From assembly GCA_944389515.1 (NCBI GenBank), contig CALXMQ010000002.1, positions 3,233 to 67,232 of the forward strand: a stretch of 64,000 nucleotides of DNA, given 5' to 3'. The notes beneath the pieces were generated by a model. It did no database searches, was not told where the DNA came from, and saw only the letters and a program-made list of their open reading frames with translations. Both the position numbers and the translations under genes were made by a program. Positions 1 through 47,880 of the stretch are shown here, one piece after another. Origin of the DNA: an uncultured Alphaproteobacteria bacterium (GTDB taxonomy: Bacteria > Pseudomonadota > Alphaproteobacteria > Rs-D84). Within the stretch, counting starts at the first letter, position 1, and every line of letters starts with the position of its first letter.

Positions 1-32
1 AAACGCCCCGTTCAACCCCGGGGCGTTTTTTT
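1..32 (+). terminator. Rho-independent terminator for a gene left of the window
   Basis: Perfect 10-bp stem AAACGCCCCG (1-10) / CGGGGCGTTT (19-28) with an 8-nt loop, running into a T-tract (26-32). Confidence 0.55.
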
Positions 33-1059: not shown

Positions 1060-1064
1060 CTTTT

Positions 1065-17835: not shown

Positions 17836-18354
17836 TTAGTATCGGCCGATGCACCCCAAATAAGAATTGCCAGTCGATTCCAGTATATTTATGAACTGGG
17901 ATTGGCTGTGCCCGGTAAACAATGCCAAAATAGTACCAGCATCTGTGGCCAACATATCTGCAACCGTTGCAATACCAGAATTCATTTTCTTAAAAAAACC
18001 GCTGGCCGGGTATATTTCTGCCGCCAACAGTTGATTTTTTCCGCCACGCGCCGATTTTGACGCCGTTTGTTCAGATTCTATTACCATCAACTGGCATTCT
18101 GGGGATATAATCAATTTATCCGTAACAATGGCGTTGCCACCCAATAATTCCCCCCACCAACCGGTCGATTCGCAAAAAACAGGATAATATATCGATGCAT
18201 CTGGATTTTTTGCCAAAACATCCATTAAATCCGCATCACCCGTTACAACATCAGGCATAACGCCAGTTGTGGTGTTTATAACCTTGCGCGCCAACTGGTA
18301 ATCTGGGTCGGCGTTTGTTTTGCGTGGCCAATAAAGAATCGGAAACTGCTTCAT
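17836..18354 (-). CDS. Hypothetical soluble protein (172 aa) immediately downstream of VirB6-like paralog A
   Basis: Intact ORF with no TM segment or signal peptide. An extended -10 (TGATATAAT) lies 8 nt upstream of the ATG. Confidence 0.5.
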   Translation of the reverse strand: MKQFPILYWPRKTNADPDYQLARKVINTTTGVMPDVVTGDADLMDVLAKNPDASIYYPVFCESTGWWGELLGGNAIVTDKLIISPECQLMVIESEQTASKSARGGKNQLLAAEIYPASGFFKKMNSGIATVADMLATDAGTILALFTGHSQSQFINILESTGNSYLGCIGRY

Positions 18355-18422: not shown

Positions 18423-19712
18423 TTATTTTTTTATTGCGGCGTACCATTTTTTCAGGTTTTCCCACACTATATTTATATTTTTCTTGGTCGATTCGTAGAA
18501 CGTTTTCGGAATTTCTACTTTTGCAAACAATGTTTTTACCAGCGCAGGTATCATTGTCATAAACATTGCAACAAATATTCCCATCAACAGAATTGTTATT
18601 ATGCTGTCGTTACGCATCATCAATCCATCCATCAAAATGGTCGCATCATTTTCAGATAATGCCAATGCCAATCTGTCTGCGCCGTCCCATCGGCCAAACA
18701 CAGCATTCAAAAACATGACTGCAAACGTAACAAATACACCAATCAATGCAATGCCGCACGTTGCCTGAATTACATTATCTGTTATATCTTTGATATTGCG
18801 CCCACCATTTGGAAATATTGCCCAGCCACGGAACAACCATGACAACAGCATAAATGGCAACATTATTAAATCCATGGACAGTTTTATAAACACTTCTAAA
18901 AAATATAATGGTATTGGTAATAATGCTGCAAAAAACAATACTAATATCAGTAACCCTGCGAAAAAAATCGGAATATTTGGAAATATTGGAATATTCCACA
19001 ACATTTTATGCATATATTCTTCATTAAATGCCATATTTAACATAGTCCACCCAACAGTCATCCCCAGACCCGTCATTTGATGGACATTTGCAACTTCGCA
19101 TGCCAAATTATGGCGCAATCGTGGCGAAAACGCACCAGATTGTGCCGCATCCACAGATGCCGCGGTTGGATCCGCCAATGCAGTTGCAACAACACAACTG
19201 GCAAATTCGTCATTACCGGCAATAACACGATTCAAAGACAAACCTACATTAAACACAGGTTCAATCACTATATCCGTCAGCATCCGCGGCAATGGCACCG
19301 CCAACAATGCGCCGACAAATGCCAATTTAATAAACTTGGTTCCAAAATCACTGACGATCGACCATGGTTCTTCCAGCTTTGCATTTATAAATCCAGAAAA
19401 CAGTTTCCACGCAAACCATATTGCCATCAACCCAGCAGAAAAAGGTATTATCACCGATCCCAACGCACTGTACACCCGTGGTACCAATCCAGACATCGTT
19501 GCCATAATATCTGCAAACATTTGACAAGACCAACAACTGGTAAAAAAATTCAGCGCATCTGCCATATTTACTGGGGCGGCGGTTCTGTAAATTGAAAATC
19601 CGGCAATAACACCAACGCCGGCGATTGCACCGACGACAAATGGCGCAACAGCACCTGCCGAAAATGGCAAAAATGATAAAAAAACTATCCAGAATTTTTT
19701 TAGTTTGCTCAT
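18423..19712 (-). CDS. Polytopic membrane protein, VirB6/TrbL-like paralog A (429 aa)
   Basis: ORF 18423..19904, with the start moved to MSKLKKFW (cat 19710-19712) so it does not overlap the divergent gene. It has 6 or more TM segments, an N-terminal SCWSCQMF motif, a central ..DLIMLPFMLLSWLFRGW segment and a basic C-terminal tail. Confidence 0.5.
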   Translation of the reverse strand: MSKLKKFWIVFLSFLPFSAGAVAPFVVGAIAGVGVIAGFSIYRTAAPVNMADALNFFTSCWSCQMFADIMATMSGLVPRVYSALGSVIIPFSAGLMAIWFAWKLFSGFINAKLEEPWSIVSDFGTKFIKLAFVGALLAVPLPRMLTDIVIEPVFNVGLSLNRVIAGNDEFASCVVATALADPTAASVDAAQSGAFSPRLRHNLACEVANVHQMTGLGMTVGWTMLNMAFNEEYMHKMLWNIPIFPNIPIFFAGLLILVLFFAALLPIPLYFLEVFIKLSMDLIMLPFMLLSWLFRGWAIFPNGGRNIKDITDNVIQATCGIALIGVFVTFAVMFLNAVFGRWDGADRLALALSENDATILMDGLMMRNDSIITILLMGIFVAMFMTMIPALVKTLFAKVEIPKTFYESTKKNINIVWENLKKWYAAIKK

Positions 19713-19720
19713 CGTTTTTA

Positions 19721-19729
19721 AGTATACCA
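19721..19729 (-). promoter_or_regulatory. Extended -10 element TGGTATACT, 8 nt upstream of the ATG at 19712
   Basis: Plus strand agtatacca at 19721-19729, in the 68-bp divergent intergenic region. Confidence 0.3.
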
Positions 19730-19745
19730 TATTTTGCATTAAATG

Positions 19746-19754
19746 TGATATAAT
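19746..19754 (+). promoter_or_regulatory. Extended -10 element TGATATAAT for the four-gene VirB6-like operon
   Basis: tgatataat at 19746-19754. A GAGAGG SD lies directly before the ATG at 19781. Confidence 0.35.
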
Positions 19755-19780
19755 TGAAAAGATAAAAAATATCAGAGAGG

Positions 19781-21052
19781 ATGATTTTACTAAAACGCGC
19801 AATTTTTTATGTTGCAATGGCAGGTATACTGTTATCGCCAATGTCGGCATATGCCGCAGATGGCAATATTGTTGACGCGTTAAATCTGGCACCATTGATA
19901 CCAACTATTTTAGACGCACTGATGATGGTGGCCAGTGGCGGTTATGATTTTTTTGTCGGTGATGGTAACGGCATTATTTATATTTTAGTTTGGGGATTTT
20001 TAGCCGTATCAATCGCATTATATGCACTGAAAATGTATTTCCCAAAAATGTGGGTTTCGTTTTTTGGGTTTTCTGGCGGCGGCGAAATGGTCGGTGGAAT
20101 TGACGGCATGACTATCGCAACAAATATGCTTAAACCTGCGATACGTGCCATTGTCGCGGTAACAGTGCTGTTGCAATTAAAGCCTGTATATTTAACTGAT
20201 TGGTTGATAAACCCTTTTTTACAATTTGGGGCACTGTATACAGAAAGCATCACAGAAACAATAAATGAATCTGGCATAAATGCACCAAAAATTGATTGTC
20301 CACCGTCCATTATTCAACAAGGCTGGATAAGCCCAGAAAGTTGTGAATTTTTGGTTCAGCCTGTATCTGATTTATCGCATGCAAATAATCAAATTATCAA
20401 GCGTGGATTTGATTTTATAAATTCTGGTTTACGTGGACTGTTGACGTTGATTCCACATGGTGGGGAAAATTTCTTGAATATTATAACTGGGATATTTTTG
20501 GTATTCACATTTGTGGCCAGTAATTTATTTATGGCGCTGCTGATTATCCAGGCGATATTTAATTTCGGCATGGCGTTGGTTTTATACCCGTTCCAGGTTT
20601 TGGCATATGTGGTAAAGCCCAGTGACAAATGGTTGGATGTTTGGCCGGCATTTGGTGGGATTACAAAATCACTGCAAAAAATTGTAATTACCATGATTGC
20701 GTGTGCGTTCATATTATGCGTAAATATCGCAGTTATAAAATCACTGTTTCAATGGAATTCGTCTGTGTTTGTTGTTGCCGCTGGGGGCACCGCTACATCA
20801 AATGTACCAACCGCGGTAAATAACGCATTGGGGTTTGGGCAACATTCTATATTATGGTTGTCATCAATATTGACGTTCTATTTGATGTTTCGCATATTCA
20901 ATTTAACACGCGAACAACTGGATTCATATGTCGGCAAAGGTATGGATAACCTGTATAACCAGGTAAAAAGCGATACAAAAATATTGACAGGGCGCGTTAA
21001 AAGCGTTGGTTCTGCGATTGGCACAGCGATGGGATGGATTAAAAAGAAATGA
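19781..21052 (+). CDS. Polytopic membrane protein, VirB6/TrbL-like paralog B (423 aa, cleavable signal peptide)
   Basis: Signal ..LLSPMSAYA|ADG, multiple TM segments, a central ..MALVLYPFQVLAYVVKPSDKWLDVW segment and the C-terminal tail GWIKKK. ATGA overlap with the next gene. Confidence 0.5.
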   Translation: MILLKRAIFYVAMAGILLSPMSAYAADGNIVDALNLAPLIPTILDALMMVASGGYDFFVGDGNGIIYILVWGFLAVSIALYALKMYFPKMWVSFFGFSGGGEMVGGIDGMTIATNMLKPAIRAIVAVTVLLQLKPVYLTDWLINPFLQFGALYTESITETINESGINAPKIDCPPSIIQQGWISPESCEFLVQPVSDLSHANNQIIKRGFDFINSGLRGLLTLIPHGGENFLNIITGIFLVFTFVASNLFMALLIIQAIFNFGMALVLYPFQVLAYVVKPSDKWLDVWPAFGGITKSLQKIVITMIACAFILCVNIAVIKSLFQWNSSVFVVAAGGTATSNVPTAVNNALGFGQHSILWLSSILTFYLMFRIFNLTREQLDSYVGKGMDNLYNQVKSDTKILTGRVKSVGSAIGTAMGWIKKK

Positions 21053-22254
21053 ACGGGGTTATGAATTCTTTGGTTGATACGTCCGTACAGTGTTGGGGCT
21101 GTCCGGTGTTTGACCGTTTATTTCAAATCGTATCCAATGCAGCAGCGGCGGTATATGACCAATTTGTTATATTCTGTGCAATTTTATTCTGCGTATTATT
21201 TGCATTTTATGTTGTAAATGCAGTATGGAAAAATATGCGTGGTGGTGTCACCGATCCTTTTTATCAAAAATCATTAAAGCCAGTTATTATAAATTCTTTG
21301 GTATCGTTGGCGTTTTTAAGCATGGGGATTTTTCTGCCGCGTTTTATAACAACAGTTACGTTTGAACCAGTGGCAAATATCACATTGATATATACGCACA
21401 GCATGCTGCAAACAGATATTGATACCGTAAATGAAAAAGTCACTTATGTCCCCACAGATATGTCGGACGATGGATTTTTTCGACCAGAATTACGCTACAG
21501 TATCATAATGCTGATGAAAACCACGATAACACAATTTCAGTCTTATATGAAATTAGGTATCGCGGTAATGGACAAAGCCTTTTCACTGAACGCGTTATTG
21601 GGTATTGGTTCATTGATAAAACATATTATACTATTTTTTATCGGACTGTATCTGTTCTATGGATTTTTTAAGTTATTTGTTCGATTCTGTTTTTATTTTG
21701 CAGATATAATTGTTGCGATGACTTTTTTTGCTTTTTTCTTTCCATTATCATTGATATTGGTTGCATTCAAAGGCGCAGATAATGTTCCAAACTGGATATC
21801 TGGACTGGGTAAAAAATTCGGCACAGGCGAATTCAAAAATCTGATAAATGCAATTATCGCGTTGGCGGCGGCTGTACTGACATATACTGTAATCATGGCA
21901 ATCATCGCCAAATTCTTTGCAGCCCCAGGACAAAGTGCATCAGATATTATGGAATTGATTACCAGTGGAAATATCTTTGCCGGCGATTTATCAGATGATA
22001 ACTTGGCGGCGATGACAATCGGCGGATGCGTAATTTTGGTTTACGTGTTAAACTTTATATATGGGCAAATTCCCCAAGTGACATCTATGGTCTTGGATTC
22101 GTTCGGTGTATCTGCCAAGAACGATTTAAGTGAACAGTTGGCCAATGATGCCATGAAATTGACAACAAATATTGTTGATACCGCCAAGAAAATCGGTACA
22201 ACAATTTTGAACGGTGGCAACAAAAAAGACGATAAAGGCAAAGATAAAAAGTGA
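21049..22254 (+). CDS. Polytopic membrane protein, VirB6/TrbL-like paralog C (401 aa)
   Basis: N-terminal QCWGCPVF motif, multiple TM segments, a central ..FFFPLSLILVAFKGADNVPNW segment and a Lys/Asp-rich tail. 4-nt overlaps on both sides. Confidence 0.5.
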   Translation: MNGVMNSLVDTSVQCWGCPVFDRLFQIVSNAAAAVYDQFVIFCAILFCVLFAFYVVNAVWKNMRGGVTDPFYQKSLKPVIINSLVSLAFLSMGIFLPRFITTVTFEPVANITLIYTHSMLQTDIDTVNEKVTYVPTDMSDDGFFRPELRYSIIMLMKTTITQFQSYMKLGIAVMDKAFSLNALLGIGSLIKHIILFFIGLYLFYGFFKLFVRFCFYFADIIVAMTFFAFFFPLSLILVAFKGADNVPNWISGLGKKFGTGEFKNLINAIIALAAAVLTYTVIMAIIAKFFAAPGQSASDIMELITSGNIFAGDLSDDNLAAMTIGGCVILVYVLNFIYGQIPQVTSMVLDSFGVSAKNDLSEQLANDAMKLTTNIVDTAKKIGTTILNGGNKKDDKGKDKK

Positions 22255-23702
22255 AAGCAAAACTGATTATGATTGCCATACAATTTATCATGGGCGCAAT
22301 CGCGTTGGGGTTGGGCGTATGGTATTTGTCATCGTCCATCGGTGGCGCCGCCATTACGTATACCAGCATGGATGGATTTATGCATGCAATCGGCGCAGGC
22401 AGTGGCGATGTCGCAAATGCAAATGGATGTTTTCTGTGCGGATATATTGAACAATTATTTGCTGTTATCGGCAACGCCGCAGAAATGTTCTGGACGGCAA
22501 TGGTTGATAATATTTGGATATTGCTGGCAATCGGATTCGGTTTGTTTTTGTTTATTTATACTGGGCAATATATGTTTGATGTCGCAAAAAAAACAGCGGC
22601 ATTGGATGAATCTGAAAAAAAATTAGAATTACGCGCATGGTTTGATAAAGTCTGGCGCCAAGGTGCACGTGTTTTAATTGTTGGTGCAATGATGGGGGCG
22701 TTGGGTATGGGTGGAACCGCTGCACTGCGCACCGTGGCAAATATTACCATTACGCCTGTATTATTTGTTGGGTCAGAATTATCCATGGCGGCCACAGGCG
22801 TATCAGATGCCGCACAGTGCGCTGGTGGTGCCATGTCCGATGTATCAAATTCTGACGATATATTAAACCCAATACTGCAACCTTTTATGTGCGTAATGGG
22901 CAATATCAACAGTGTTATGTTGGCTGGCGCGGCAGGCGGATTTTCATTGATGAATTATGCCTGGTTGGATTTGGGCGGTGGCGCGTTTACTTGGATTGCC
23001 GGTTTGGCGTTGGTTTTATTGTTCTTGGTCATCGGGTTTGATTTGGTATTCCAGGTTTTATCTGTGGTATTCAAATTAGTATTTTTGATTATATTCTTGC
23101 CATTATTGTTGGCGGCGGCGGCATTTGAACAAACATGGTCTTTGGCCAGTGGCGTTGTAAAAAACGCCATCAATATGTTGGTAAAAACAGCCATCCAGGT
23201 TGTCAGTATAACATTAAAGGTTTTAATCACGTATGCCATTGTCGCATATGCCGCAGACGCATATTTCCCAGGGCCGGTGGATGGTTACAGTGCCATTTTA
23301 CCACCAATGATGGGGCGGCAAATTGAAAATCCAGATGCAGAAACAATGTCTGTAATAAATGTGTTTTCAACGTGCGAAACAGTCGCCACCGTTGACGGTG
23401 AAATGGATGCAGATAAATTCCGTGATTGTTTTACCGCACAAAAAGCAATGGTTGAAAACGAATATCCTGGGGCATTTGATTTTATGCGCGATGGATTCGA
23501 TTTCTTGTTGATGATGATATTTGTGTTTGCATTATACTTTTATGCAATCAAGTCAAAAGTTGATGCAGTATTTGGACTGGACAAGGCCGCATCTGGCGAA
23601 CAATTTAATTTCGGCCAGTGGGCAAAGGATTTAGGTAAAAAAATTTGGAATACACCAAAACAATTATTTGGAATAATATCCAAGGCGGTTGGCAAAGAAT
23701 AA
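22251..23702 (+). CDS. Polytopic membrane protein, VirB6/TrbL-like paralog D (483 aa)
   Basis: GTG start overlapping the upstream TGA. GCFLCGYI motif and a central ..IIFLPLLLAAAAFEQTWSLASG segment, which resembles the GP..(x)..F..T...(x)..W segment I recall in VirB6. Confidence 0.5.
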   Translation: MKAKLIMIAIQFIMGAIALGLGVWYLSSSIGGAAITYTSMDGFMHAIGAGSGDVANANGCFLCGYIEQLFAVIGNAAEMFWTAMVDNIWILLAIGFGLFLFIYTGQYMFDVAKKTAALDESEKKLELRAWFDKVWRQGARVLIVGAMMGALGMGGTAALRTVANITITPVLFVGSELSMAATGVSDAAQCAGGAMSDVSNSDDILNPILQPFMCVMGNINSVMLAGAAGGFSLMNYAWLDLGGGAFTWIAGLALVLLFLVIGFDLVFQVLSVVFKLVFLIIFLPLLLAAAAFEQTWSLASGVVKNAINMLVKTAIQVVSITLKVLITYAIVAYAADAYFPGPVDGYSAILPPMMGRQIENPDAETMSVINVFSTCETVATVDGEMDADKFRDCFTAQKAMVENEYPGAFDFMRDGFDFLLMMIFVFALYFYAIKSKVDAVFGLDKAASGEQFNFGQWAKDLGKKIWNTPKQLFGIISKAVGKE

Positions 23703-25000
23703 TGAATCTGATAAAAAAAATCTTTACCAAAATAACGATTATCGCGATGGCGATACTGATTATCGCGCCTGGGGCATATGCCGCCACCGCCAATGTACCA
23801 ATGACAGAAATTGGCGATTATGGCGATTGGATGACAGACACTAATTCCGCAGAATTTAATATGGCCATCGGAACAGATATGTCCGAATTTCAATCTGAAT
23901 TTCAGACAACCCAACTGGTGCCAGATTATGTACCAATAGAAGCCAAGGTTGGTATCGCACTGATAAACGCATTATCAATGATTGCAGATATATTGGATTC
24001 TTCGTTGGTACGCTTTGCGATAATATTTATGATTTTGGCATATATATTCTGGGTTATGTTCGAAGCATACAATATGATGACCAAGGGTTCCAGCGCACTG
24101 GATTTAACCGTGGATTTAATTAAAAAAGGTGCGGTTATTGCCATATGGTCAATTATATTAGTCCAAGGACCCGCCCAAGTATTTATGTGGATTATGGGGC
24201 CGATTATCAGTGTTGCAACATATATGTCTGATTTAATCTTGGGGGCGGTGACAAATGCATCAGGTGCGGCATTACCAGATACATGCATCGCGATACGCGA
24301 TTATGCGGCAACACATACATCACCAGGCGCGCTGATTGACGCCAATGCCGTGGCAAATATGTTATGTGTTCCAACACGATTATCTGGATTTTTCGTTACT
24401 GCGGTGTCCGCAGGATGGAAATGGATGTTGGCCGGCATTGGGCACAGTGCTTTTACCATGCTGGTTGGTGCGATATTTATTGTGATATTTATTTACAATG
24501 CGTTCAAATTTGCACTGATGGGTTTGGGTGTGATTATGGATTTATTCTTGGGCGTGCTGATGTTACCGTTCACGGCAATCGCAGAAACAATTAAACAAAC
24601 ATCATACAAAGGGATTGTTGGTGATATATTTAATGGATTTTTAGGGCTGTTCAAACCAGAAGCATTATCAAAACAAATTATGCGATTTATAAATGCGGCA
24701 ATATATTTTGTATCATTATCAATCGTGGTTGCATTATGTGCGGCGTTATTGTCATGGACCGTGGATGCAAATTTAGCATCTGAAATCCCCAGCATTGAAA
24801 ACACTGGATTTATGGTAACACTGTTGACAGGCGCATTGGTTGCGTATCTGGCAAACCGGGCCGACAGTATCGCCAAAGATTTAGGCGGCAGCATAGATGA
24901 CAGTTTTGGTAAAAAATTTGGCGATGATGCTAAAAAATTATGGGATAAAACCATTGGATATGGGAAAACAGTGGTTGACGCAATACGAAATAAAAAATAA
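23702..25000 (+). CDS. Polytopic membrane protein, VirB6/TrbL-like paralog E (432 aa, cleavable signal peptide)
   Basis: ORF 23645..25000, with the start moved to MNLIKKIF (TAATG overlap with paralog D). Signal ..IIAPGAYA|ATA and a central ..LGVLMLPFTAIAETIKQ segment. Confidence 0.5.
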   Translation: MNLIKKIFTKITIIAMAILIIAPGAYAATANVPMTEIGDYGDWMTDTNSAEFNMAIGTDMSEFQSEFQTTQLVPDYVPIEAKVGIALINALSMIADILDSSLVRFAIIFMILAYIFWVMFEAYNMMTKGSSALDLTVDLIKKGAVIAIWSIILVQGPAQVFMWIMGPIISVATYMSDLILGAVTNASGAALPDTCIAIRDYAATHTSPGALIDANAVANMLCVPTRLSGFFVTAVSAGWKWMLAGIGHSAFTMLVGAIFIVIFIYNAFKFALMGLGVIMDLFLGVLMLPFTAIAETIKQTSYKGIVGDIFNGFLGLFKPEALSKQIMRFINAAIYFVSLSIVVALCAALLSWTVDANLASEIPSIENTGFMVTLLTGALVAYLANRADSIAKDLGGSIDDSFGKKFGDDAKKLWDKTIGYGKTVVDAIRNKK

Positions 25001-25002: not shown

Positions 25003-25028
25003 ATCCGTCACATGACGGATTATTTTTT
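25003..25028. terminator. Bidirectional hairpin terminator between paralog E and the helicase gene
   Basis: ATCCGTC ACAT GACGGAT followed by TATTTTTT, with an A-run upstream. Confidence 0.55.
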
Positions 25029-28441: not shown

Positions 28442-31400
28442 TTAATCCATACTGACGCTTAGTATATCGCCATAATCACCGGCTTCGTCTGCGCCAATAT
28501 AACATTTGATATGACGCCCAACATTTTCCATCCATTCTTCATATGCTGCCTTTTCTGCTGCACTTAAATTGGACTGTTGGATATCGCGTGTGGCCTTGTT
28601 GACCAAGAATCCACCAGCCGCGCCAGTTACAACCGCACCAATCGTTGGCCCCAACCATTGCAAGTTTTTGCCATCTTTCGATTTTGTGGTGCCATCTGCA
28701 TTTTCACAATCAGACCGTAACAAATCCAAATCTGTGGTCGCCTGGGTCTTTAATGATGCAATTTGGCTGTTTGCGGTTGTGGCCGCTTCTTTCTGGGCCT
28801 GGGTTGCGTTGACCGATTTGCCGGCATCAATCGCTGTCTGGGCACTCAACCAATTATTCACAGACGTTTTTGCTGCATTTATAACACCTGTTGCAACATT
28901 CAAAGACTTGGCTTCTGATTCCATACGACTTAGATATGTTGACACATTTTGTGTTGTATTTCTGTTGATAGATTCTTGGATTGCATCTATGAACTTTACA
29001 GCATTATTATTGTCGGTATCTTGTTTGGCCAACCCAGTCAAATTACCAAACGCTGTACCTTGTTGGATTGCACCACCCAGGTACGCACCACCAATCGTGC
29101 CACCCACAGTGCCCAACAATGTTGTCCAGAATTCAACACGGTCATTTTTCTCTTTTTGGGCGGCTGTTTGATCTGCAACCGCGGCATTTGCCAATTCTTC
29201 TAATTCATCTGATGGTATCCAACTGCCGCATGTAAAGGTATCGCCGACGGCAAAGTATGTTGTTGCCCAATCTGCGCCCTTCATCGCATTTTGGATATCC
29301 ATATCATCAGATTGTAATCTGACCTGGACACTGCAAAATGAACCATACAAATCGTTACTGGGGTTGAAATCATTACGTTCCAAACCATTGATTGTATAAT
29401 CGTTTGGTACACGATTGTTTTTCAATTTAACCCACATAAACGTACTGCCGGTATCATTGCCAGTCATAATACCGCCATTGTTCGCAGCCAAGCACATATT
29501 TTGTTCTTGGGTCAATTTGCTGTTATATATGGCTTGGGCTTCTTTTTCCAAATCATATATCAAATCACGGAACAATGTTGATGCCGCCTGGTTTTGTACA
29601 TATGTTGAATATGATGTATAAACAGGTTCATCATAAATCTGGCCGTTGGCGTCAACGGAATAACATGTACCTTGGCTGCCATCATCGGCACTGCATAACG
29701 GATTTCCATTTTCGTCAGTTGCCTGGACTCTGTCTTCGGTTATGCTGGTTGCACCACCGGCGTCAATCCAACCTTCGCGAACATTGGATGCCGCACCCCA
29801 TGATGATGCAGATGCAGAATCCGCAATCTTTAATTTATTCTGTTCGATTGCCAAATGTTCTTTGCATACGTCAGCACTTTTAACGGTATCTAAACACAAT
29901 CCTAATACGACTGTGTAATCCAAAACACCACCGACTTTGTTCATGCTGCGATCAAATGATGTGTTACCAGTATCTGTCAATGATGACGCAACATCAGTAC
30001 GATTGCGATAGCAATTCATGTAATCTTCGCCACACATTGAACGCACACAACTTTTTGCCACAGATTCACATTGTGTACGCATCTGGGCAATCGCAGCGTC
30101 GCTGTAACTGGTGGCCAAAGATGCGTTTAATGACGCAATTACACCAATCGGGTCGCCACTGTTGTTGCTGTATTCAGGGAACAAAGTATCAAACGCATTG
30201 TTATCAATGTATGAATACGTATATCCACCTGTGCTGTCTGGGTTTGCCGCAGCATATTTACAATATGGGTCTGTATTTACAATATCAGAACATCCTGTTT
30301 TGATTTCATTATAACTGACCGAATTATTTATTGTTTTATCAACCGCGCCAAATACCTGGGAATAACACGCAGCCCCAGAACCACCGCCACAAACACGCAT
30401 TGCACAAGATTTAATTGTATCAGCGCAATTTTCTTTGGCTGTGGAATCAAATTCTTCGATTAAATCATTGATGCGCGATTTCATTGCAGAATTCATACGT
30501 GATGCGTATGCTTCGGCAAAGACGTCTTCTTGGTTGTTGGCGTCACTAAGCTGTGATGCAGTTGGCATTACACCATTGCCCAAGAAAGTCGCATAACAAT
30601 ATTTATTAGAACCAATCGTGTCTAAGCAAGAATTTCTGATGTACGATTGTACATTTGAACGTGTGTTTGTATCCGTGGACAATACGATTGAACTGACATC
30701 AACCTGGACCCCGGTATTGATTGCGTCAACCAAATCAATCGTTGAAATTGTCGCAGATTCATAACATTTATATGGGTTTTGTGCACACGCATTTAAGATA
30801 CATTGATCTGCAACCTTGTAACACGTAGAAACCGCATTTACCGCCGCCAGTGCCGCACCTTCGGTAATCATGATGCCAACACGACTGTTGCCAGCTGGAT
30901 TGGCAGTTGTTGTTGCACTGCCGAATAATTCTATTTTTCCTTCGGATTGACAACGTGCCAACGTAGAATCACAGTAAACCATTTGCTTTCTGAATTCACT
31001 GTTGGTGGTGCACAATTCAAAGTCCGCGCCACAAACATTATCACGTTGCAAACATGTTGTATATCTGCGTACACAGTCACTGGTGTTATACATATTAGAA
31101 ATTGCCGCCCCAGTTATCATTTGTCCCAAAACACTGCCATCTGTGGGGTATACGTAATCTGTAACTTCGCCATAAGAATTTTCAGATGCAACCGTCGATA
31201 ACGCCGTCGTCGATGATGTTCCAAACAATGCATTTACACCAGACGCGGTACACTGTGCCAATGTCCCCAGGCATTGCGCCATTTTTCCGTGGAACAAAAC
31301 CTTGGTCGTACATTCTTCGAAATTAGGTCCGCATACATCTGCATCTTCCAGACATGATGTGTACGCTTCGATACATTCGGCATTATCCAACAAATTCGAC

Positions 31401-31573
31401 GTTGTCGTTGTTGTTGTCGTCGTTGTACCCGTTAAATATGCCGTCATCGTAGGCAAACGTCTGGACGCCGTCGTCGCAGTATTCAAAACACTGGGGCGCG
31501 CAGTCAGCGCATATGCCGTCGGGATAACACTGCAAACAGCCAGAAAACCAACAATTTTGTTCAGAATTTTCAT
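28442..31573 (-). CDS. Large secreted/membrane-anchored cysteine-rich protein (1043 aa): signal peptide, poly-Thr, repeated Cys modules, two C-terminal Gly-zipper TM helices
   Basis: ORF 28442..31582 (GTG), with the start moved to ATG MKILNKIVGFLAVCSVIPTAYA| (GGAGTGAG SD). Two tandem C-x6-C-x6-C-x6-C-x12-C-x6-C modules and three C-x6-C-x4-C-x6/7-C modules. TM-like LLGTVGGTIGGAYLGGAI and LGPTIGAVVTGAAGGFLV. Confidence 0.65.
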   Translation of the reverse strand: MKILNKIVGFLAVCSVIPTAYALTARPSVLNTATTASRRLPTMTAYLTGTTTTTTTTTSNLLDNAECIEAYTSCLEDADVCGPNFEECTTKVLFHGKMAQCLGTLAQCTASGVNALFGTSSTTALSTVASENSYGEVTDYVYPTDGSVLGQMITGAAISNMYNTSDCVRRYTTCLQRDNVCGADFELCTTNSEFRKQMVYCDSTLARCQSEGKIELFGSATTTANPAGNSRVGIMITEGAALAAVNAVSTCYKVADQCILNACAQNPYKCYESATISTIDLVDAINTGVQVDVSSIVLSTDTNTRSNVQSYIRNSCLDTIGSNKYCYATFLGNGVMPTASQLSDANNQEDVFAEAYASRMNSAMKSRINDLIEEFDSTAKENCADTIKSCAMRVCGGGSGAACYSQVFGAVDKTINNSVSYNEIKTGCSDIVNTDPYCKYAAANPDSTGGYTYSYIDNNAFDTLFPEYSNNSGDPIGVIASLNASLATSYSDAAIAQMRTQCESVAKSCVRSMCGEDYMNCYRNRTDVASSLTDTGNTSFDRSMNKVGGVLDYTVVLGLCLDTVKSADVCKEHLAIEQNKLKIADSASASSWGAASNVREGWIDAGGATSITEDRVQATDENGNPLCSADDGSQGTCYSVDANGQIYDEPVYTSYSTYVQNQAASTLFRDLIYDLEKEAQAIYNSKLTQEQNMCLAANNGGIMTGNDTGSTFMWVKLKNNRVPNDYTINGLERNDFNPSNDLYGSFCSVQVRLQSDDMDIQNAMKGADWATTYFAVGDTFTCGSWIPSDELEELANAAVADQTAAQKEKNDRVEFWTTLLGTVGGTIGGAYLGGAIQQGTAFGNLTGLAKQDTDNNNAVKFIDAIQESINRNTTQNVSTYLSRMESEAKSLNVATGVINAAKTSVNNWLSAQTAIDAGKSVNATQAQKEAATTANSQIASLKTQATTDLDLLRSDCENADGTTKSKDGKNLQWLGPTIGAVVTGAAGGFLVNKATRDIQQSNLSAAEKAAYEEWMENVGRHIKCYIGADEAGDYGDILSVSMD
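31400..31426 (-). repeat. Nine consecutive Thr codons (ACG/ACA) in the 1043-aa CDS
   Basis: Plus strand cgt tgt cgt tgt tgt tgt cgt cgt tgt, encoding T53-T61. Confidence 0.8.
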
Positions 31574-31660
31574 TCGACTCACTCCATACTTATTGCTTTA
31601 AGTATAACATAAAATCATAATCAGACAAAGGAAAAATACACGAAATATTAAATACATTGT

Positions 31661-31695: not shown

Positions 31696-32655
31696 TTATC
31701 CGATTTCATCCAATATTGCCTTGAATTCTGACATATCATCAGGCATATGTGCCTTGAAATGCATGAGCGCCCCTGTTACCGGATGTGTAAAATCTAAAAT
31801 TTCAGCATGCAGCATTTGTCCATTATGCGTTTTCAAAAATTCTAGCATGTCGGGATTTTTAACACTGGCCAATCGATTTGATGCGCGACCATATAATGGG
31901 TCACAGACAACTGGGAATCCATGCGCAGACAAATGTACACGGATTTGATGTGTACGCCCAGTCATCAATGTACAACGAAACAGTGATACACCCGCACGCG
32001 TCCATACGTCTGAAACATTTACAATCGTATGTGCCGGCTTGCCCCCCGATTTTACCATTGTCATTTTTTGGCGATTGCGCGATGAACGGGCGATGTTACC
32101 GGTTATATCTGCGCCATCCCAGTTTGGAACACCCCATACAAATGCGACATATTTCCGTGTTAAATTGTGCGCAGAAAACGTTTTTACCAACCCACGAAAT
32201 GCCGCATCTGATTTTGCAAATACCATTACACCACTGGTATCTTTGTCCAATCGATGCACGACACCTGGGCGTGTATCACCCCCCAATGCCGACAAATGTG
32301 TATGCGCCAATATATTTTGAACCAATGTGCCAGTTTTATTACCAGCCGATGGATACATAACAACCCCACGCGGTTTGTTTATCACAATTATGTCATCGTC
32401 TTCGAATAAAATATCTAAATCAAAATCGGATGAAATATTATCAGCGGCAACATTTGTTTTTTGTTCTGGCACAGTAACAATAATTTTATCCCCATGGCGC
32501 AAACGCGCGGCACGCTTTACCCCCACGCCATTTAATGTAACGTCAAAGCGCTGAATTTCACTGCGTGAAAATTCAGGTAATTGTGCCACCAAAAATTTAT
32601 CCAATCGCATACCTGCGTCGGTTTCTGGTACAATAAAATCACGGATATCTGGCAT
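31696..32655 (-). CDS. rluD: RluA-family 23S rRNA pseudouridine synthase (RluD-like, N-terminal S4 domain)
   Basis: GMRLDKFL S4-like N-terminus, catalytic HRLDKDTSGVMVFAK and GRTHQIRVH. Confidence 0.8.
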   Translation of the reverse strand: MPDIRDFIVPETDAGMRLDKFLVAQLPEFSRSEIQRFDVTLNGVGVKRAARLRHGDKIIVTVPEQKTNVAADNISSDFDLDILFEDDDIIVINKPRGVVMYPSAGNKTGTLVQNILAHTHLSALGGDTRPGVVHRLDKDTSGVMVFAKSDAAFRGLVKTFSAHNLTRKYVAFVWGVPNWDGADITGNIARSSRNRQKMTMVKSGGKPAHTIVNVSDVWTRAGVSLFRCTLMTGRTHQIRVHLSAHGFPVVCDPLYGRASNRLASVKNPDMLEFLKTHNGQMLHAEILDFTHPVTGALMHFKAHMPDDMSEFKAILDEIG

Positions 32656-33146
32656 TATTTATATTCGTCCCAATCAGGCCCCTTGTCACATTTACCCAAA
32701 TCAATGGTCAATTCACGCCCAGATGATTCCACCGGACACGTTAAAATACCGGTACTGACCGCCTGGTCTGCATCACGCGTGGCATTACGCCATGTAAATT
32801 TAATTTCATCTGGGGCATACAGGCATGCGATACGCAATTCTCCTTCGTGGCGATTGCGTGGACCAATCCATACACGTACCCCTTCGCCCAGGCCATAGCA
32901 CGGAAAACCATCCAAATAATATAAAACCAATCCACGACCAACAATACCAGATGATGGAATAAATTCACCACGATATTCAGAATATCGTAATCCGGTTAAA
33001 CCTTCCCAATCTGTACTGGTGGAAAAAATGCTGACCCGTGGCGCTGGTCCCGGGGTACTGGGCGTATCAGGTGTTTCAGAATCCGCACAAAACGCCGTGC
33101 CCACAATACTTAAAACCGCAATGACAGAAAATAAAATCTTTTTCAT
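32655..33146 (-). CDS. Secreted hypothetical protein (163 aa)
   Basis: Signal MKKILFSVIAVLSIVGTAFC|A, a Pro/Thr linker and 4 further Cys. Abuts the genes on both sides (operonic). Confidence 0.5.
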   Translation of the reverse strand: MKKILFSVIAVLSIVGTAFCADSETPDTPSTPGPAPRVSIFSTSTDWEGLTGLRYSEYRGEFIPSSGIVGRGLVLYYLDGFPCYGLGEGVRVWIGPRNRHEGELRIACLYAPDEIKFTWRNATRDADQAVSTGILTCPVESSGRELTIDLGKCDKGPDWDEYK

Positions 33147-45654: not shown

Positions 45655-47880
45655 ATGGTCGAAAAGTTCAAGATTTTATCCGCCGGTGGTAAAGGCAAGG
45701 GTTTGAATATATTCAAATCCAGCGCATACAAAGAACATCAGCGCACGCCGATGGCATCACTGTTTTGGTCACTGCGATGGGCGGTTGGGATATGGTTGGT
45801 ATGCGCATTGGCGTTTGGACTGTCTTTTTGGATTGAACATATTTGGCGGTATGGTTGGTCGCCGGCCACATCACATTGGACTGGGTTATACTTTTACAAC
45901 ATGTTGACCAGTGGTGGGATGTCCATATTGGCAGAAATACCAGCATGGTTTATGCGCACTTTATTACGCACAGATATAATGTGCATAACGCCATTGTTAC
46001 CAATTATCGCATATTTCTTTATGGCGGACAGTACGTTGGTCAAAGAATTTAACCCATATGGCAATGATAAATTTGATGAAAAATCTTCAAACAAAGCATC
46101 CAAAGAAGATATTGAAAAAATGGGGCTGTTAAAGGGATTCATGATGGTATTGGGGTATTTCAAGAAAAAACCATTGATGATGAACGAATGTCTGTCTGCG
46201 TTATGTGTTGCGCCCCCGGGGACTGGTAAATCACAAGGCGTGGTATTTCCAACAATATTTGAGTGCAACAATGTATCGATGATTATAAATGACCCAAAGC
46301 CTGAATTGTATCAATCGTCGTCCGCGTATCGTTCGACTGTGGGCCCGGTATTTATTATGAATTGGGCCGGCCAAGACGACCCAGAACGTGGAATTTATTA
46401 TCCTTCGTGGAATCCGTTGTCGCCAGAACACGTGCCTTTTAACCAAGAACAACGCGATTTGTATATTGATTCAATGTGCAACGTTTTGATTCCTGATAAA
46501 GAATCATCATCAGCAGATCCGCATTGGACAATATCTGGACGTGCGGCATTGTCTGGGTTGGTACAATTTATTGTATCCAAGGTTGAACGTGCCAAGGCAG
46601 ATGATTATTTCTTTGCACGAATAACATCTGGGGCGTTTGATGCCGAAGATGCCGCCGTGCTGGGTGATTATTATTTATCCATGATGAACGACCAAAATGC
46701 ATATGCCGCATATGCATTGTTACAAAAAGGCGAATTAAACGCGATGAATTATGTGCATATCGGCACATGGGACAAAATCCCAGATGCATGGCGCGGACGC
46801 GAAGCATCTTTGTCCATGATTTTAGATTGGATAAATTCCAGCCAAATCGCAATCGCCCAAGAAATGGAAGAACGTCGCCACCAAGGTGATCAAATGGTGT
46901 CTTTTGACGACCCAATGAACAGATTGTTTTTAAGTGCCGTAGATGAAGCGCGCCAATATGCATACGCACATCGTGCTGTCTTAGAATTGACCCAGTTGGC
47001 AAATACACCTGATAAAGAACGTGGGTCTATTATGTCCACTGTAATGGAAGGTTTATCTATATTCCGTAATGCGGCGGTTCGTAATCGTACCAGTCATTCT
47101 GATTTTCATTTTTCAGATTTACGCGGTCTGCGCGACCCACGTGATGGCAAGGTTAAACCGGTGACTGTATATTTATCAATCAATATGGTTGATGCCGAAG
47201 CGTTAAATCCAATCACTGGGATATTTATTGAATTGATGACAAACTTTCTGTTGGCAAACCCACCCGAAGCAGAACATGCCGGTGAAAAATTAGGCCCATA
47301 CCCAGTATTATTCATATTGGACGAAATGCCAAAAATGCAAAAGTTACAGGCGGTAATCCAAGGTCCAGATTTAGGACGCGGACAAAAAATATCTTATTTA
47401 ATCATCGGTCAAGACATACACCAGATTCAAGAAAAATATGGTGCAGATGCCGCTGCAACAATTATTTCTACGACGGCGGCAAAAATTGTATTACGTCAAA
47501 ACGACCCAGATACCGCAGAAAGATTTTCTAAAATGATGGGTTATAAAATGAAAATCAAAACTGTCAAGGGGCCTGATGGTGAAGATAAAGAAGAAACCAG
47601 CGAAGAATTATTATATAGTCCAATGGATATCATGAAATTGGACGATAAAAAACAACTGGTAATATTCCAGGGCTGGTATCATCGACCCATAGAAGCCGAT
47701 AAACAAATGGCATTTAATGACCCACGTTTGGCCGGATACATGGCCATGGGCGCATGCAGTCCATTGCCTGAATTTTTAATTCCATCGCATCATGCTGCGT
47801 TGGGATATGCCGGGAATCCACGAATCTATATTCCACAAACCAAAGAAACAAAAGAACTGGAAAACATAGAGAATAAATAA
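45655..47880 (+). CDS. virD4: Type IV secretion coupling protein VirD4/TraG
   Basis: N-terminal TM helices, Walker A CVAPPGTGKSQGVVFPT, DPKPELY, Walker B-like VLFILDEMPKM and IIGQDIHQIQEKYG. 741 aa (possible alternative start M33 at 45751). Confidence 0.85.
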   Translation: MVEKFKILSAGGKGKGLNIFKSSAYKEHQRTPMASLFWSLRWAVGIWLVCALAFGLSFWIEHIWRYGWSPATSHWTGLYFYNMLTSGGMSILAEIPAWFMRTLLRTDIMCITPLLPIIAYFFMADSTLVKEFNPYGNDKFDEKSSNKASKEDIEKMGLLKGFMMVLGYFKKKPLMMNECLSALCVAPPGTGKSQGVVFPTIFECNNVSMIINDPKPELYQSSSAYRSTVGPVFIMNWAGQDDPERGIYYPSWNPLSPEHVPFNQEQRDLYIDSMCNVLIPDKESSSADPHWTISGRAALSGLVQFIVSKVERAKADDYFFARITSGAFDAEDAAVLGDYYLSMMNDQNAYAAYALLQKGELNAMNYVHIGTWDKIPDAWRGREASLSMILDWINSSQIAIAQEMEERRHQGDQMVSFDDPMNRLFLSAVDEARQYAYAHRAVLELTQLANTPDKERGSIMSTVMEGLSIFRNAAVRNRTSHSDFHFSDLRGLRDPRDGKVKPVTVYLSINMVDAEALNPITGIFIELMTNFLLANPPEAEHAGEKLGPYPVLFILDEMPKMQKLQAVIQGPDLGRGQKISYLIIGQDIHQIQEKYGADAAATIISTTAAKIVLRQNDPDTAERFSKMMGYKMKIKTVKGPDGEDKEETSEELLYSPMDIMKLDDKKQLVIFQGWYHRPIEADKQMAFNDPRLAGYMAMGACSPLPEFLIPSHHAALGYAGNPRIYIPQTKETKELENIENK

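What the first reader, a model, noticed from the sequence alone, without database searches (positions are those of the whole stretch)
18423..25000. Array of five paralogous polytopic membrane proteins: VirB6/TrbL-like expansion with two N-terminal classes
Four genes (19781-25000) are translationally coupled through ATGA, GTGA and TAATG overlaps, and a fifth (18423-19712) is divergent across a 68-bp promoter region. All are 400-480 aa with at least 6 TM segments and short basic C-terminal tails. All share a central segment: a TM helix with Pro, then F/W...W. The five versions are LPFMLLSWLFRGW, LYPFQVLAYVVKPSDKW, FFPLSLILVAFKGADNVPNW, FLPLLLAAAAFEQTW and MLPFTAIAETIKQ. This resembles the GP-x-F-x2-T-x-W region I recall in VirB6/TrbL. 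They fall into two classes. B and E have cleavable ..AYA|A signal peptides. A, C and D instead have a C-[WF]-x-C motif just before the first long TM (SCWSCQMF, QCWGCPVF, GCFLCGYI). Tandem VirB6 multiplication is a hallmark of the Rickettsiales rvh T4SS, but there the genes follow virB3-virB4 and encode much larger proteins. Here no other virB gene is adjacent. The CxxC subclass is not something I associate with VirB6. This is either a new flavour of the T4SS inner-membrane platform or an undescribed membrane system.
Basis: partly seen in the sequence, partly recalled or inferred. Interest (0 to 1): 0.85.

Follow-up and report, generated by a model that had tools for sequence, protein, structure and literature searches.

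The report
Five divergent VirB6-like membrane paralogs
A gut alphaproteobacterium with a tiny genome (Candidatus Enterousia) keeps five very different, unannotated copies of the VirB6 inner-membrane protein of type IV secretion systems, much like the unexplained VirB6 multiplication in Rickettsia and Wolbachia.

Summary
Five polytopic membrane-protein genes lie at 18423-25000. A is divergent from B-C-D-E across 68 bp, and B-E overlap by ATGA, GTGA and TAATG. All 80 related genomes examined keep the same arrangement.

The five are true paralogs. Each ortholog-family profile matches a profile of distant relatives at 99-100% hhalign probability, while FtsW and MraY controls score below 2%. Five columns are invariant across 144 sequences.

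No Pfam or NCBIfam model hits them directly, but four lines tie them to TrbL/VirB6:
- An Enterousia-only profile finds relatives (E 1e-19 to 1e-26) that themselves match PF04610, one above the gathering score.
- AlphaFold models of A and C both have R388 TrwI/VirB6 as their top five PDB fold matches.
- The published VirB6 motif P-x7-F-x2-T-x6-W is recognisable at the invariant proline.
- A VirD4 coupling protein lies 20 kb away.

The CxxC is invariant in A, C and D, present in all 26 distant relatives checked, and predicted periplasmic.

No VirB4 or VirB8-11 gene was found in the DNA I could see. A complete secretion system is therefore inferred, not shown.

Verdict: a new, domain-only variant of the Rickettsiales-type VirB6 expansion. 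Moderately interesting.

The parts
18423..19712 (-). Paralog A (429 aa), CxxC class (CWSC at residues 60-63), with an extra N-terminal hydrophobic segment. It is the member closest to the distant relatives.
   Evidence: ORF. CxxC in 78/78 orthologs and a conserved loop pair C173/C205. hhalign against the distant-relative profile gives 100%, E 1e-43. The AlphaFold model's top five PDB fold matches are TrwI/VirB6.
19713..19780 (.). 68-bp divergent control region between A and B. Contains the extended -10 TGATATAAT (19746-19754) and the ribosome-binding site GAGAGG for B. A -35/-10-like site for A lies on the minus strand (19749-19721).
   Evidence: Sequence read. Minus-strand site listed. These are consensus matches only; function was not tested.
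19781..21052 (+). Paralog B (423 aa), signal-peptide class (..PMSAYA|ADGN), no CxxC. Motif P-x7-[AV]-x2-[SKN]-x6-W.
   Evidence: Trp at +18 in 77/81 orthologs. hhalign against the distant-relative profile gives 99.0%, E 8e-18. B-E comparison 93.7%.
21049..22254 (+). Paralog C (401 aa), CxxC class (CWGC at 15-18), no N-terminal signal or anchor. ATGA overlap with B.
   Evidence: hhalign A-C 96.9%, E 2e-10. AlphaFold model pLDDT 66; top five PDB fold matches are TrwI/VirB6, probability 0.99-1.00, TM-score on target 0.44-0.51.
22251..23702 (+). Paralog D (483 aa, GTG start), CxxC class (CFLC at 60-63) with an N-terminal anchor. Carries the full P-x7-F-x2-T motif (PLLLAAAAFEQT). GTGA overlap with C.
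   Evidence: F in 79/80 and T in 64/80 orthologs. Conserved Cys pairs 190/214 and 375/393. hhalign against the distant-relative profile gives 99.4%.
23702..25000 (+). Paralog E (432 aa from the ATG in TAATG), signal-peptide class (..APGAYA|ATAN), no CxxC. Motif P-x7-[IVL]-x2-T.
   Evidence: T in 78/80 orthologs. hhalign against the distant-relative profile gives 99.7%, E 2e-25.
25003..25020 (.). Hairpin followed by a T-run on both strands, between the convergent ends of E and uvrD. Likely the terminator of the B-E operon.
   Evidence: Pattern match only.
17836..18354 (-). Conserved 172-aa soluble protein of unknown function, always directly downstream of A. A possible sixth member of the module.
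   Evidence: Adjacent to A in 77/77 loci at 63-100% identity. No Pfam hit on record and no NCBIfam hit.
45655..47880 (+). VirD4/TraG-type coupling protein (741 aa, two N-terminal TM segments, Walker A APPGTGKS). It stands alone among housekeeping genes, 20.6 kb from the array.
   Evidence: The 741-aa gene at the matching position in two related contigs hits Pfam T4SS-DNA_transf, TrwB_AAD_bind and TraG-D_C. The window protein itself hits NCBIfam VirD4/TraG models at E 4e-42 to 1e-19. Walker A. Conserved at 62-92% identity in 80 metagenome contigs.

Best explanation
The five genes encode highly diverged paralogs (about 18-21% identity to A) of VirB6/TrbL, the polytopic inner-membrane protein of type IV secretion systems. 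In the R388 system, VirB6 forms the five-fold base of the stalk and is hypothesised to act as the platform that recruits and assembles VirB2 pilin.

Shown: common descent of the five; membership of a wider alphaproteobacterial clade that reaches PF04610; a VirB6-like predicted fold; conservation of the whole array, its order and its start/stop overlaps across the lineage; and a VirD4 coupling protein in the same genome.

Inferred: A (with the 172-aa ORF behind it) and B-C-D-E are expressed from the 68-bp divergent region, the latter four with translational coupling. The proteins insert with the N-terminal segment and the large Cys-pair-containing loop in the periplasm and the basic tail in the cytoplasm. 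The CxxC of A, C and D would then sit at the periplasmic face just before the first core helix. Together the five would build the inner-membrane platform of an rvh-like T4SS whose other genes are scattered elsewhere in the roughly 0.9-Mb genome.

Genes 1, 3 and 4 of a five-gene array in a distant 34%-GC relative match A, C and D best. Genes 2 and 5 fit B and E only by position and CxxC pattern. This argues that the copies are not redundant.
For: Paralogy:
- Family-against-family hhalign: A-C 96.9%, B-E 93.7%, A-E 86%, A-D 81%, all near full length and colinear.
- All five against a profile of 26 distant relatives: 99-100%, E 8e-18 to 1e-43. FtsW and MraY controls stay at or below 2%.
- Five invariant columns in 144 sequences.

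Link to VirB6/TrbL:
- The Enterousia-only profile finds 1242 cluster representatives.
- Among the distant relatives, PF04610 hits P0374 (8.7e-8, 32.6 bits, above the 25.9 cut-off), P0338 (1.2e-5), P0378, P0352, P0354 and P0369. Every hit covers model positions 77-191.
- NCBI names P0374 'type IV secretion system protein'.
- The top five Foldseek PDB matches of the two models (A and C, predicted from overlapping alignments) are TrwI/VirB6, probability 0.97-1.00.
- The VirB6 signature P-x7-F-x2-T-x6-W (PMC10732058; pTi PLILTGYIFDRT..W) is present in D, partly present in A, B, C and E, and clear in relatives such as PLLVVSWVFDYT.
- The best local hhalign match between the five-family profile and an Agrobacterium-type VirB6 profile falls exactly on this motif.

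T4SS context:
- VirD4 is in the window.
- A related array in L097 lies 6-10 kb from VirB11 (phmmer 2e-20) and a TrbI/VirB10-domain protein.

Selection:
- The array is intact in 80/80 genomes, and the gene overlaps are conserved.
- L098 genes 1, 3 and 4 match A, C and D best. The CxxC pattern + - + + - is the same in both arrays.

Topology:
- Conserved Cys pairs lie in the long loop of A, B, D and E.
- Distant relatives carry a signal peptide and a 200-470-aa extension in front of the CxxC.
Against: - No direct Pfam or NCBIfam hit for any of the five.
- Profile searches against PDB sequences find nothing.
- Direct hhalign against an Agrobacterium-type VirB6 profile is not significant (below 1% for A-E; 39%, E 3e-4 for the distant relatives).
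- The AlphaFold models are of modest confidence (pLDDT 59 and 66). TM-scores to TrwI are only 0.38-0.51 on the target, with Foldseek E-values of 0.01-0.1.
- The essential Trp at +18 is kept only in B (and at +17 in C). E has none.
- No VirB1-11 homolog was detected by phmmer in the 64-kb window, in the +/-10 kb flanks of the array in 80 genomes, or in the flanks of virD4 in 80 contigs. No candidate VirB4-like ATPase is in the window.
- Topology and signal-peptide cleavage rest on hydropathy and pattern reading only.
Confidence: 0.72

Rival explanations
1. The proteins descend from VirB6 but have been repurposed. They no longer belong to a secretion channel and serve another envelope function, for example uptake or membrane transport in an organism that lacks standard transporters, or a platform for the pilin-like proteins encoded nearby.
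For: - No VirB4 or VirB8-11 gene near the array or near virD4 in any locus examined.
- The canonical Trp is not conserved in all five.
- Enterousia genomes are reported to lack standard sugar, amino-acid and peptide transporters and to encode many hypothetical membrane proteins (PMC12306168).
- Prepilin-like genes lie at 33677-37591 and 39678-40136.
Against: - VirD4, which to my knowledge has no role outside T4SS, is retained at 62-92% identity across the lineage, in genomes reported to show no sign of pseudogene accumulation (PMC12306168).
- A related array lies next to VirB10 and VirB11.
- Scattered T4SS genes are normal for rvh systems (PMC10732058).
- Only about 5-10% of the genome was visible, so the absence of the other genes was not shown.
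Confidence: 0.18
2. The family is an unrelated polytopic membrane-protein family, such as a transporter or another machine. On this view the resemblance to VirB6 comes from helical-membrane composition plus a short chance motif.
For: - No direct Pfam, NCBIfam or PDB-sequence hit.
- Direct profile-profile comparison with Agrobacterium-type VirB6 is insignificant.
- Fold matches have modest TM-scores on low-confidence models.
Against: - PF04610 hits on six intermediates always fall on the same model region and coincide with the motif. One exceeds Pfam's own threshold.
- Out of 350,542 PDB chains, the top five for two separate models are all TrwI, and the next unrelated hits have probability at or below 0.2.
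- Control membrane families (FtsW, MraY) give no signal in the same tests.
- Canonical VirB6 proteins are themselves so diverged that pTi VirB6 fails to find TrwI by phmmer.
Confidence: 0.05
3. The five copies are interchangeable or alternative subunits, for example phase- or condition-specific variants or decoys, rather than parts of one assembly.
For: Multiple virB6 copies in Rickettsiales have been described as 'presumably functionally redundant' (bioRxiv 10.1101/2025.08.29.673095).
Against: - All five are retained in 80/80 genomes of under 1 Mb.
- B-E overlap start to stop, which favours joint expression.
- Individual paralogs have best-matching counterparts in the same order in a distant lineage.
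- Class-specific features (CxxC, signal peptide, Cys pairs) are invariant within each paralog.
Confidence: 0.05

Closest known systems
TrbL/VirB6 family (Pfam PF04610), e.g. A. tumefaciens VirB6 and R388 TrwI (PDB 7O3V, 8RT9)
   Same: - All-helical polytopic inner-membrane protein with a large loop after the second hydrophobic segment and a cytoplasmic-type basic tail.
- The conserved proline-initiated segment P-x7-F-x2-T(-x6-W).
- Best and only convincing fold match for two models.
- Linked by sequence through intermediates that hit PF04610.
   Different: - No direct HMM hit.
- Roughly 100-190 residues longer than pTi VirB6 (295 aa).
- Five copies instead of one.
- Not next to virB5/virB7/virB8 or any virB gene.
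- Invariant periplasmic CxxC in three of five, which pTi VirB6 lacks.
- Trp position shifted or lost in A, D and E.
- Chromosomal, with no tblastn match in 72,556 plasmids.
Rickettsiales vir homolog (rvh) T4SS: tandem RvhB6a-e / VirB6-1..5 of Rickettsia, Orientia, Wolbachia and Anaplasmataceae
   Same: - Three to five tandem, extremely diverged VirB6 paralogs. The Rickettsia copies show about 80% divergence and have a VirB6/TrbL domain of about 413 aa (PMC2653234).
- T4SS genes scattered among housekeeping genes.
- Reduced alphaproteobacterial genome.
- Individual paralogs conserved as arrayed orthologs between lineages.
   Different: - The Enterousia proteins are essentially domain-only (401-483 aa), whereas RvhB6 proteins are 674-1154 aa with large flanking extensions.
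- The array does not follow virB3-virB4, and one gene is inverted.
- The organism is Alphaproteobacteria incertae sedis (GTDB order Rs-D84), a gut lineage, not a recognised Rickettsiales family.
- Orthology to RvhB6a-e was not tested. Whether RvhB6 proteins carry the CxxC is unknown to me.
Unannotated VirB6-like arrays in other low-GC alphaproteobacterial metagenome contigs (L090-L093, L096-L098)
   Same: - Same family (hmmsearch E 1e-15 to 1e-39 with the Enterousia profile).
- Two to five tandem copies in housekeeping context.
- CxxC just before the core.
- L098 has five copies of 437-619 aa with the same CxxC pattern + - + + -. Its genes 1, 3 and 4 match A, C and D best.
   Different: - Most members are 600-1300 aa, with signal peptides and long periplasmic N-terminal extensions. 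Some are fused to an M23 peptidase.
- The L090, L091 and L098 arrays are preceded by a 78-86-aa two-TM ORF that is absent here.
- All genes are on one strand.
- L097 has VirB10 and VirB11 nearby.

Membership tests
TrbL/VirB6 (PF04610) | Direct match to the Pfam or NCBIfam family model at or above the curated threshold | tested here: not met
   hmmscan of A-E against Pfam-A and NCBIfam at E up to 1 finds no TrbL/VirB6 hit.
TrbL/VirB6 (PF04610) | Homology to bona fide family members, shown through intermediates | tested here: met
   - The Enterousia-only profile finds P0374 (1.3e-19), P0338 (5.8e-26) and P0352 (6.5e-23).
- These match PF04610 at 8.7e-8 (32.6 bits, above the 25.9 cut-off), 1.2e-5 and 2.8e-4, all on model positions 77-191.
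- All five families match the intermediate profile at 99-100%.
- The direct comparison with an Agrobacterium-type VirB6 profile is not significant.
TrbL/VirB6 (PF04610) | VirB6 fold as in TrwI of the R388 stalk | tested here: met
   - Foldseek against PDB: the top five hits for model A (E 0.022-0.099, probability 0.97-1.00) and for model C (E 0.011-0.036, probability 0.99-1.00, TM-score on target 0.44-0.51) are TrwI chains.
- Chain 7o3v_F was confirmed as 'TrwI protein'.
- Caveat: the models have pLDDT 59 and 66, and the TM-scores are moderate.
TrbL/VirB6 (PF04610) | Signature P-x7-F-x2-T-x6-W with the essential Trp | tested here: inconclusive
   - P is invariant in all five families.
- F at +8 in A, C and D (78/78, 81/81, 79/80).
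- T at +11 in D (64/80) and E (78/80).
- W at +18 only in B (77/81). It is at +17 in C, +11 in A and +12 in D, and absent in E.
- Motif taken from PMC10732058. Trp essentiality from PMC2653234.
TrbL/VirB6 (PF04610) | Topology: periplasmic N-terminus, large periplasmic loop, cytoplasmic C-terminus | tested here: inconclusive
   - Hydropathy and charge counts fit this topology.
- Conserved Cys pairs lie in the loop, and signal peptides or anchors precede the core.
- No dedicated topology predictor or experiment was available.
TrbL/VirB6 (PF04610) | Encoded together with other T4SS genes in the same genome | tested here: inconclusive
   - VirD4 is present at 45655-47880.
- No VirB1-11 phmmer hit in the window, in the array flanks of 80 genomes, or in the virD4 flanks of 80 contigs.
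Rickettsiales rvh VirB6 expansion (RvhB6a-e) | Three to five tandem, highly diverged VirB6 paralogs | tested here: met
   Five paralogs at 18-21% identity to A, arrayed in 80/80 genomes.
Rickettsiales rvh VirB6 expansion (RvhB6a-e) | Array directly follows virB3-virB4 | tested here: not met
   The neighbours are a 172-aa unknown, L31, an inositol monophosphatase-family gene and PBP1A on one side, and uvrD and a dnaQ-like gene on the other. No VirB3 or VirB4 hit.
Rickettsiales rvh VirB6 expansion (RvhB6a-e) | Large extensions flanking the VirB6 domain (proteins of 674-1154 aa) | tested here: not met
   A-E are 401-483 aa. Extensions do occur in the distant relatives, which are 450-1305 aa.
Rickettsiales rvh VirB6 expansion (RvhB6a-e) | Orthology of individual copies to RvhB6a-e, and host organism within Rickettsiales | not testable with these tools
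   - No Rickettsiales RvhB6 sequences could be fetched.
- NCBI places Ca. Enterousia in Alphaproteobacteria incertae sedis, and GTDB in order Rs-D84 (PMC12306168).
- Some submitters label related MAGs 'uncultured Rickettsiales bacterium'.

The most novel reading that the evidence does not exclude
The five ancient VirB6 paralogs, kept in fixed order and largely translationally coupled, each contribute one subunit to a hetero-pentameric stalk base. This would replace the homo-pentamer of TrwI/VirB6 seen in R388. The three CxxC-bearing subunits (A, C, D) and two signal-peptide subunits (B, E) would occupy fixed positions, in the same + - + + - pattern as the array of a distant lineage. This would give a structural reason for the unexplained three-to-five-fold VirB6 multiplication in rvh-type T4SSs, and a minimal domain-only system in which to test it.
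Probability: 0.22. Interest if true: 0.8.

Novelty: new variant of a known kind. Interest (0 to 1): 0.52.

Why it matters
A 2025 study of Wolbachia calls the multiplication of VirB6 and other rvh components 'a mystery' (bioRxiv 10.1101/2025.08.29.673095).

- **A stripped-down example.** Enterousia has five paralogs of about 400-480 aa without the large rickettsial extensions. They are conserved in every genome of a widespread gut lineage, and at least A, C and D match the same-position genes of a five-gene array in a distant relative. This makes hypotheses such as a hetero-oligomeric platform directly testable by modelling or co-expression.
- **Hidden T4SS components.** Five conserved 'hypothetical proteins' per genome, and over a thousand cluster representatives in metagenomes, are T4SS-family components that current Pfam and NCBIfam models miss. 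Surveys of secretion systems in reduced-genome, uncultured Alphaproteobacteria therefore undercount them.
- **Lifestyle clue.** A T4SS in a roughly 0.9-Mb gut bacterium that lacks a respiratory chain and standard transporters would point to a lifestyle dependent on a host or partner cell.

Tried and rejected
- Direct family scans of A-E with Pfam and NCBIfam: nothing.
- Profile or sequence searches against PDB sequences with the C family, the five-family alignment, the mixed alignment with distant relatives, and pTi VirB6 alone: no relevant hit. Only an Agrobacterium-type VirB6 profile finds TrwI. The family is too diverged for sequence-to-profile methods.
- Direct hhalign of each family against a 117-sequence Agrobacterium-type VirB6 alignment: not significant.
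- phmmer and jackhmmer of pTi VirB6 against the 150 representatives: only one weak hit.
- Search for further paralogs in the window with the family HMMs: none beyond the five.
- The unknown-protein cluster at 32655-37591 was considered as possible VirB8-10 or extra VirB6 copies. Rejected: the three large proteins have prepilin-like N-termini and no similarity to the family.
- Search for VirB1-11 near the array, near virD4 and in the window: nothing.
- Insertion between A and B in L081, checked for T4SS genes: it holds a Cys-rich protein, an unknown protein and an HTH protein instead.
- tblastn of A and of the PF04610-positive relative P0374 against 72,556 plasmids: no match.
- R388 accession BR000038: not in the collections.
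- Gillespie 2016 (PMC5505475): not held.
- Literature searches for T4SS in Rs-D84 or RF32: nothing relevant.

Full report
**What is there.** Between 18423 and 25000 the window carries five ORFs for polytopic membrane proteins:
- A, 18423-19712, minus strand, 429 aa
- B, 19781-21052, plus strand, 423 aa
- C, 21049-22254, plus strand, 401 aa
- D, 22251-23702, plus strand, 483 aa, GTG start
- E, 23702-25000, plus strand, 432 aa

The overlaps ATGA, GTGA and TAATG are in the sequence. The 68-bp A/B spacer carries an extended -10 (TGATATAAT, 19746-19754) and a ribosome-binding site for B. A hairpin followed by a T-run on both strands lies at 25003-25020, between E and the convergent uvrD. Each protein has about six hydrophobic segments, a central loop of 76-109 residues and a Lys/Arg-rich tail.

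**Organism and conservation.** A scan of species-representative genomes with a C-family alignment returned 80 loci. Nearly all are MAGs labelled Candidatus Enterousia, uncultured Alphaproteobacteria or 'uncultured Rickettsiales', and they include single contigs of 958,618 bp (labelled circular) and 716,531 bp deposited as chromosomes. Enterousia belongs to GTDB order Rs-D84. It is a gut lineage with genomes of about 0.75-1.0 Mb, no TCA cycle or respiratory chain, and no standard transporters (PMC12306168). NCBI lists it as Alphaproteobacteria incertae sedis.

All 80 loci carry the array in the order A<->B-C-D-E, at 49-89% identity (A is missing or cut off at the contig end in three or four loci, and D or E in one or two). 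Four-base or one-base start/stop overlaps are kept in most genomes. A 172-aa soluble ORF follows A directly in 77/77 loci. The flanks are housekeeping genes: murG-ftsW-mraY, PBP1A and L31 on one side, uvrD and a dnaQ-like gene on the other.

**Are the five related?** Yes.
- BLASTP detects A-C at 1.5e-13 and weaker colinear pairs.
- Profiles built from about 80 orthologs each give A-C 96.9%, B-E 93.7%, A-E 86% and A-D 81% hhalign probability over 284-345 columns.
- Against a profile of 26 distant relatives, every family scores 99-100% (E 8e-18 to 1e-43). FtsW and MraY profiles from the same genomes score at most 2% against that profile and against the five families.
- An alignment of 144 sequences from all five families has five invariant columns: P, G, G, F, P.

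**What are they?** Pfam and NCBIfam give nothing directly. A profile made only of Enterousia sequences (A and C orthologs plus B, D and E of the window) was searched against 1.84 billion cluster representatives. It found 1242 proteins at E<=1e-3. Beyond the orthologs of A-E these include longer proteins (450-1305 aa) from other alphaproteobacterial metagenome bins.

Six of these relatives match PF04610 (TrbL/VirB6), always on model positions 77-191:
- P0374: 8.7e-8, 32.6 bits against a 25.9 cut-off
- P0338: 1.2e-5
- P0378: 1e-4
- P0352: 2.8e-4
- P0354: 8e-4
- P0369: 1e-3

NCBI names P0374 'type IV secretion system protein'.

AlphaFold models of A (pLDDT 58.8) and C (pLDDT 66.0) were compared with 350,542 PDB chains. 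In both cases the five best matches are TrwI/VirB6 chains of the R388 stalk. Probabilities are 0.97-1.00, E-values 0.011-0.099, and TM-scores on the target 0.38-0.51. Unrelated hits follow at probability 0.2 or below. An Agrobacterium-type VirB6 profile identifies chain 7o3v_F as 'TrwI protein' at 7e-11.

The published VirB6 signature is P-x7-F-x2-T-x6-W (PMC10732058). In pTi VirB6 it reads PLILTGYIFDRT...W. It sits at the invariant proline of the five families:

| Paralog | Form of the motif |
|---|---|
| D | PLLLAAAAFEQT |
| A and C | P-x7-F |
| E | P-x7-[IVL]-x2-T |
| B | P-x7-[AV], with Trp at +18 |

Distant relatives show it clearly, for example PLLVVSWVFDYT and PVAIAAWPFKWT. The best local alignment between the five-family profile and the VirB6 profile falls exactly on this motif, although on its own it is not significant.

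**Weak points.**
- Direct profile-profile comparison with Agrobacterium-type VirB6 is insignificant for A-E, and only 39% for the distant relatives.
- The structural models are of modest confidence.
- The essential Trp of VirB6 (PMC2653234) is at the canonical position only in B.

VirB6 proteins are notoriously diverged, however. pTi VirB6 itself does not find TrwI by phmmer.

**The two classes and the CxxC.** CxxC is invariant in A (CW[ST]C), C (C[WYL]GC) and D (CF[LMF]C), and absent from B and E, which start with signal-peptide-like sequences. All 26 distant relatives examined carry a CxxC about 25-65 residues into the extracted domain segment. In most of the array members examined it follows a signal peptide, and in the longer ones also a 200-470-aa extension. 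In A and D it follows an N-terminal anchor.

The CxxC is therefore predicted to lie at the periplasmic face, just before the first core helix. This is inferred, not tested. Conserved cysteine pairs in the long loop of A, B, D and E fit a periplasmic loop, as in VirB6.

The CxxC thus marks this alphaproteobacterial clade rather than being an Enterousia oddity. B and E appear to have lost it. The caveat is that the search profile was weighted towards A and C.

**T4SS context.** A VirD4/TraG coupling protein is encoded at 45655-47880. It has a Walker A motif and two N-terminal TM segments. It sits alone among housekeeping genes and is conserved at 62-92% identity in 80 metagenome contigs.

No VirB1-11 homolog was detected by phmmer in the window, in the array flanks of 80 genomes, or around virD4 in 80 contigs. 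Only about 5-10% of a genome was visible, so the presence of the remaining T4SS genes is untested. In the related bin L097, a four-copy array lies 6-10 kb from VirB11 (2e-20) and a TrbI/VirB10-domain protein.

**Related arrays.** Tandem arrays of two to five family members occur in housekeeping context in other contigs of 30-41% GC (L090-L093, L096-L098). L098 has a 78-aa two-TM ORF followed by five copies of 437-619 aa. Their CxxC pattern is + - + + -, the same as A B C D E. Genes 1, 3 and 4 match A, C and D best (109, 58 and 121 bits; hhalign 99.2, 98.8 and 99.4%). Gene 5 is nearest E by hhalign but scores highest with C by HMM, and gene 2 is ambiguous. At least part of the five-gene set therefore predates the split of these lineages, and A was later inverted in Enterousia. 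L091 shows a different pattern (+ + + + -), so the pattern is not universal.

**Comparison with what is known.** The closest described system is the Rickettsiales rvh T4SS. It has three to five tandem VirB6 copies, about 80% divergent, with a VirB6/TrbL domain of about 413 aa, and scattered gene clusters (PMC2653234; PMC10732058).

The Enterousia array differs in four ways:
- It is domain-only.
- It is uncoupled from virB3-virB4.
- One gene is inverted.
- It belongs to a gut lineage outside the recognised Rickettsiales.

In R388, VirB6 forms the five-fold base of the stalk and is hypothesised to be the pilin assembly platform (PMC11294453). Five non-redundant paralogs, four of them translationally coupled, invite the hypothesis of a hetero-pentamer. 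That is speculation.

**Verdict.** This is a new variant of a known kind. Homology is well supported, at about 0.9. Function as a T4SS platform is likely but rests on inference, which gives an overall confidence of about 0.7. Interest is moderate. The array is not a new kind of system, but it is an unannotated, minimal and strictly conserved example of a phenomenon that specialists still regard as unexplained.

Noticed in passing
window 33677-37591 (-) and 39678-40136 (+): Three consecutive proteins of 400-470 aa have prepilin-like hydrophobic N-termini (..GSMLVELLMSVALAAII.., ..GASMLEVLLAMAIVAMA.., ..NGNFLLQALLALTLIF..). A 152-aa pilin-like protein (GASMIEIIGVLAIAGLM) lies nearby. None has a Pfam hit on record. 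They may be a very diverged pseudopilin or type IV pilus-like set.
   Followed up: partly
window 28442-31582 (-), 1065-3140 (-), 310-1092 (-); L081 5069-6106: Large secreted Cys-rich proteins without any family hit: 1046 aa with 38 Cys, 691 aa with 27 Cys, and 260 aa with 9 Cys. The 1046-aa gene is replaced by glycosyltransferase genes in a near-identical strain (L001). A 345-aa Cys-rich ORF is inserted between A and B in L081. They look like variable surface or secreted proteins.
   Followed up: partly
window 17836-18354 (-): A 172-aa soluble protein with no family hit follows paralog A directly in 77/77 genomes. It may belong functionally with the array.
   Followed up: partly
L090 1015-1275, L091 4967-5227, L098 9768-10004: A small (78-86 aa) two-TM ORF with a Lys-rich tail precedes the VirB6-like arrays in three unrelated contigs. 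It is absent from the Enterousia locus. It could be a VirB3- or VirB2-like partner; no similarity was detected.
   Followed up: partly
L096 7159-11076, L097 9983-13000; P0390: Some relatives fuse an M23 peptidase domain to the N-terminus of the VirB6-like core (1305, 999 and 589 aa). This may be a built-in cell-wall hydrolase standing in for VirB1.
   Followed up: partly
window 33147-33656 (-): A 169-aa protein with an N-terminal double CxxC zinc-ribbon-like motif (CDFC...CAVC) followed by one TM segment, next to the prepilin-like genes. No family hit on record.
   Followed up: no
L048 (CAVGNU010000001.1) and L082 (OZ246409.1): Two records carrying the Enterousia-type array are titled 'Bacteroides fragilis' and 'uncultured Muribaculaceae bacterium'. 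These are probably mislabelled bins or assemblies.
   Followed up: no
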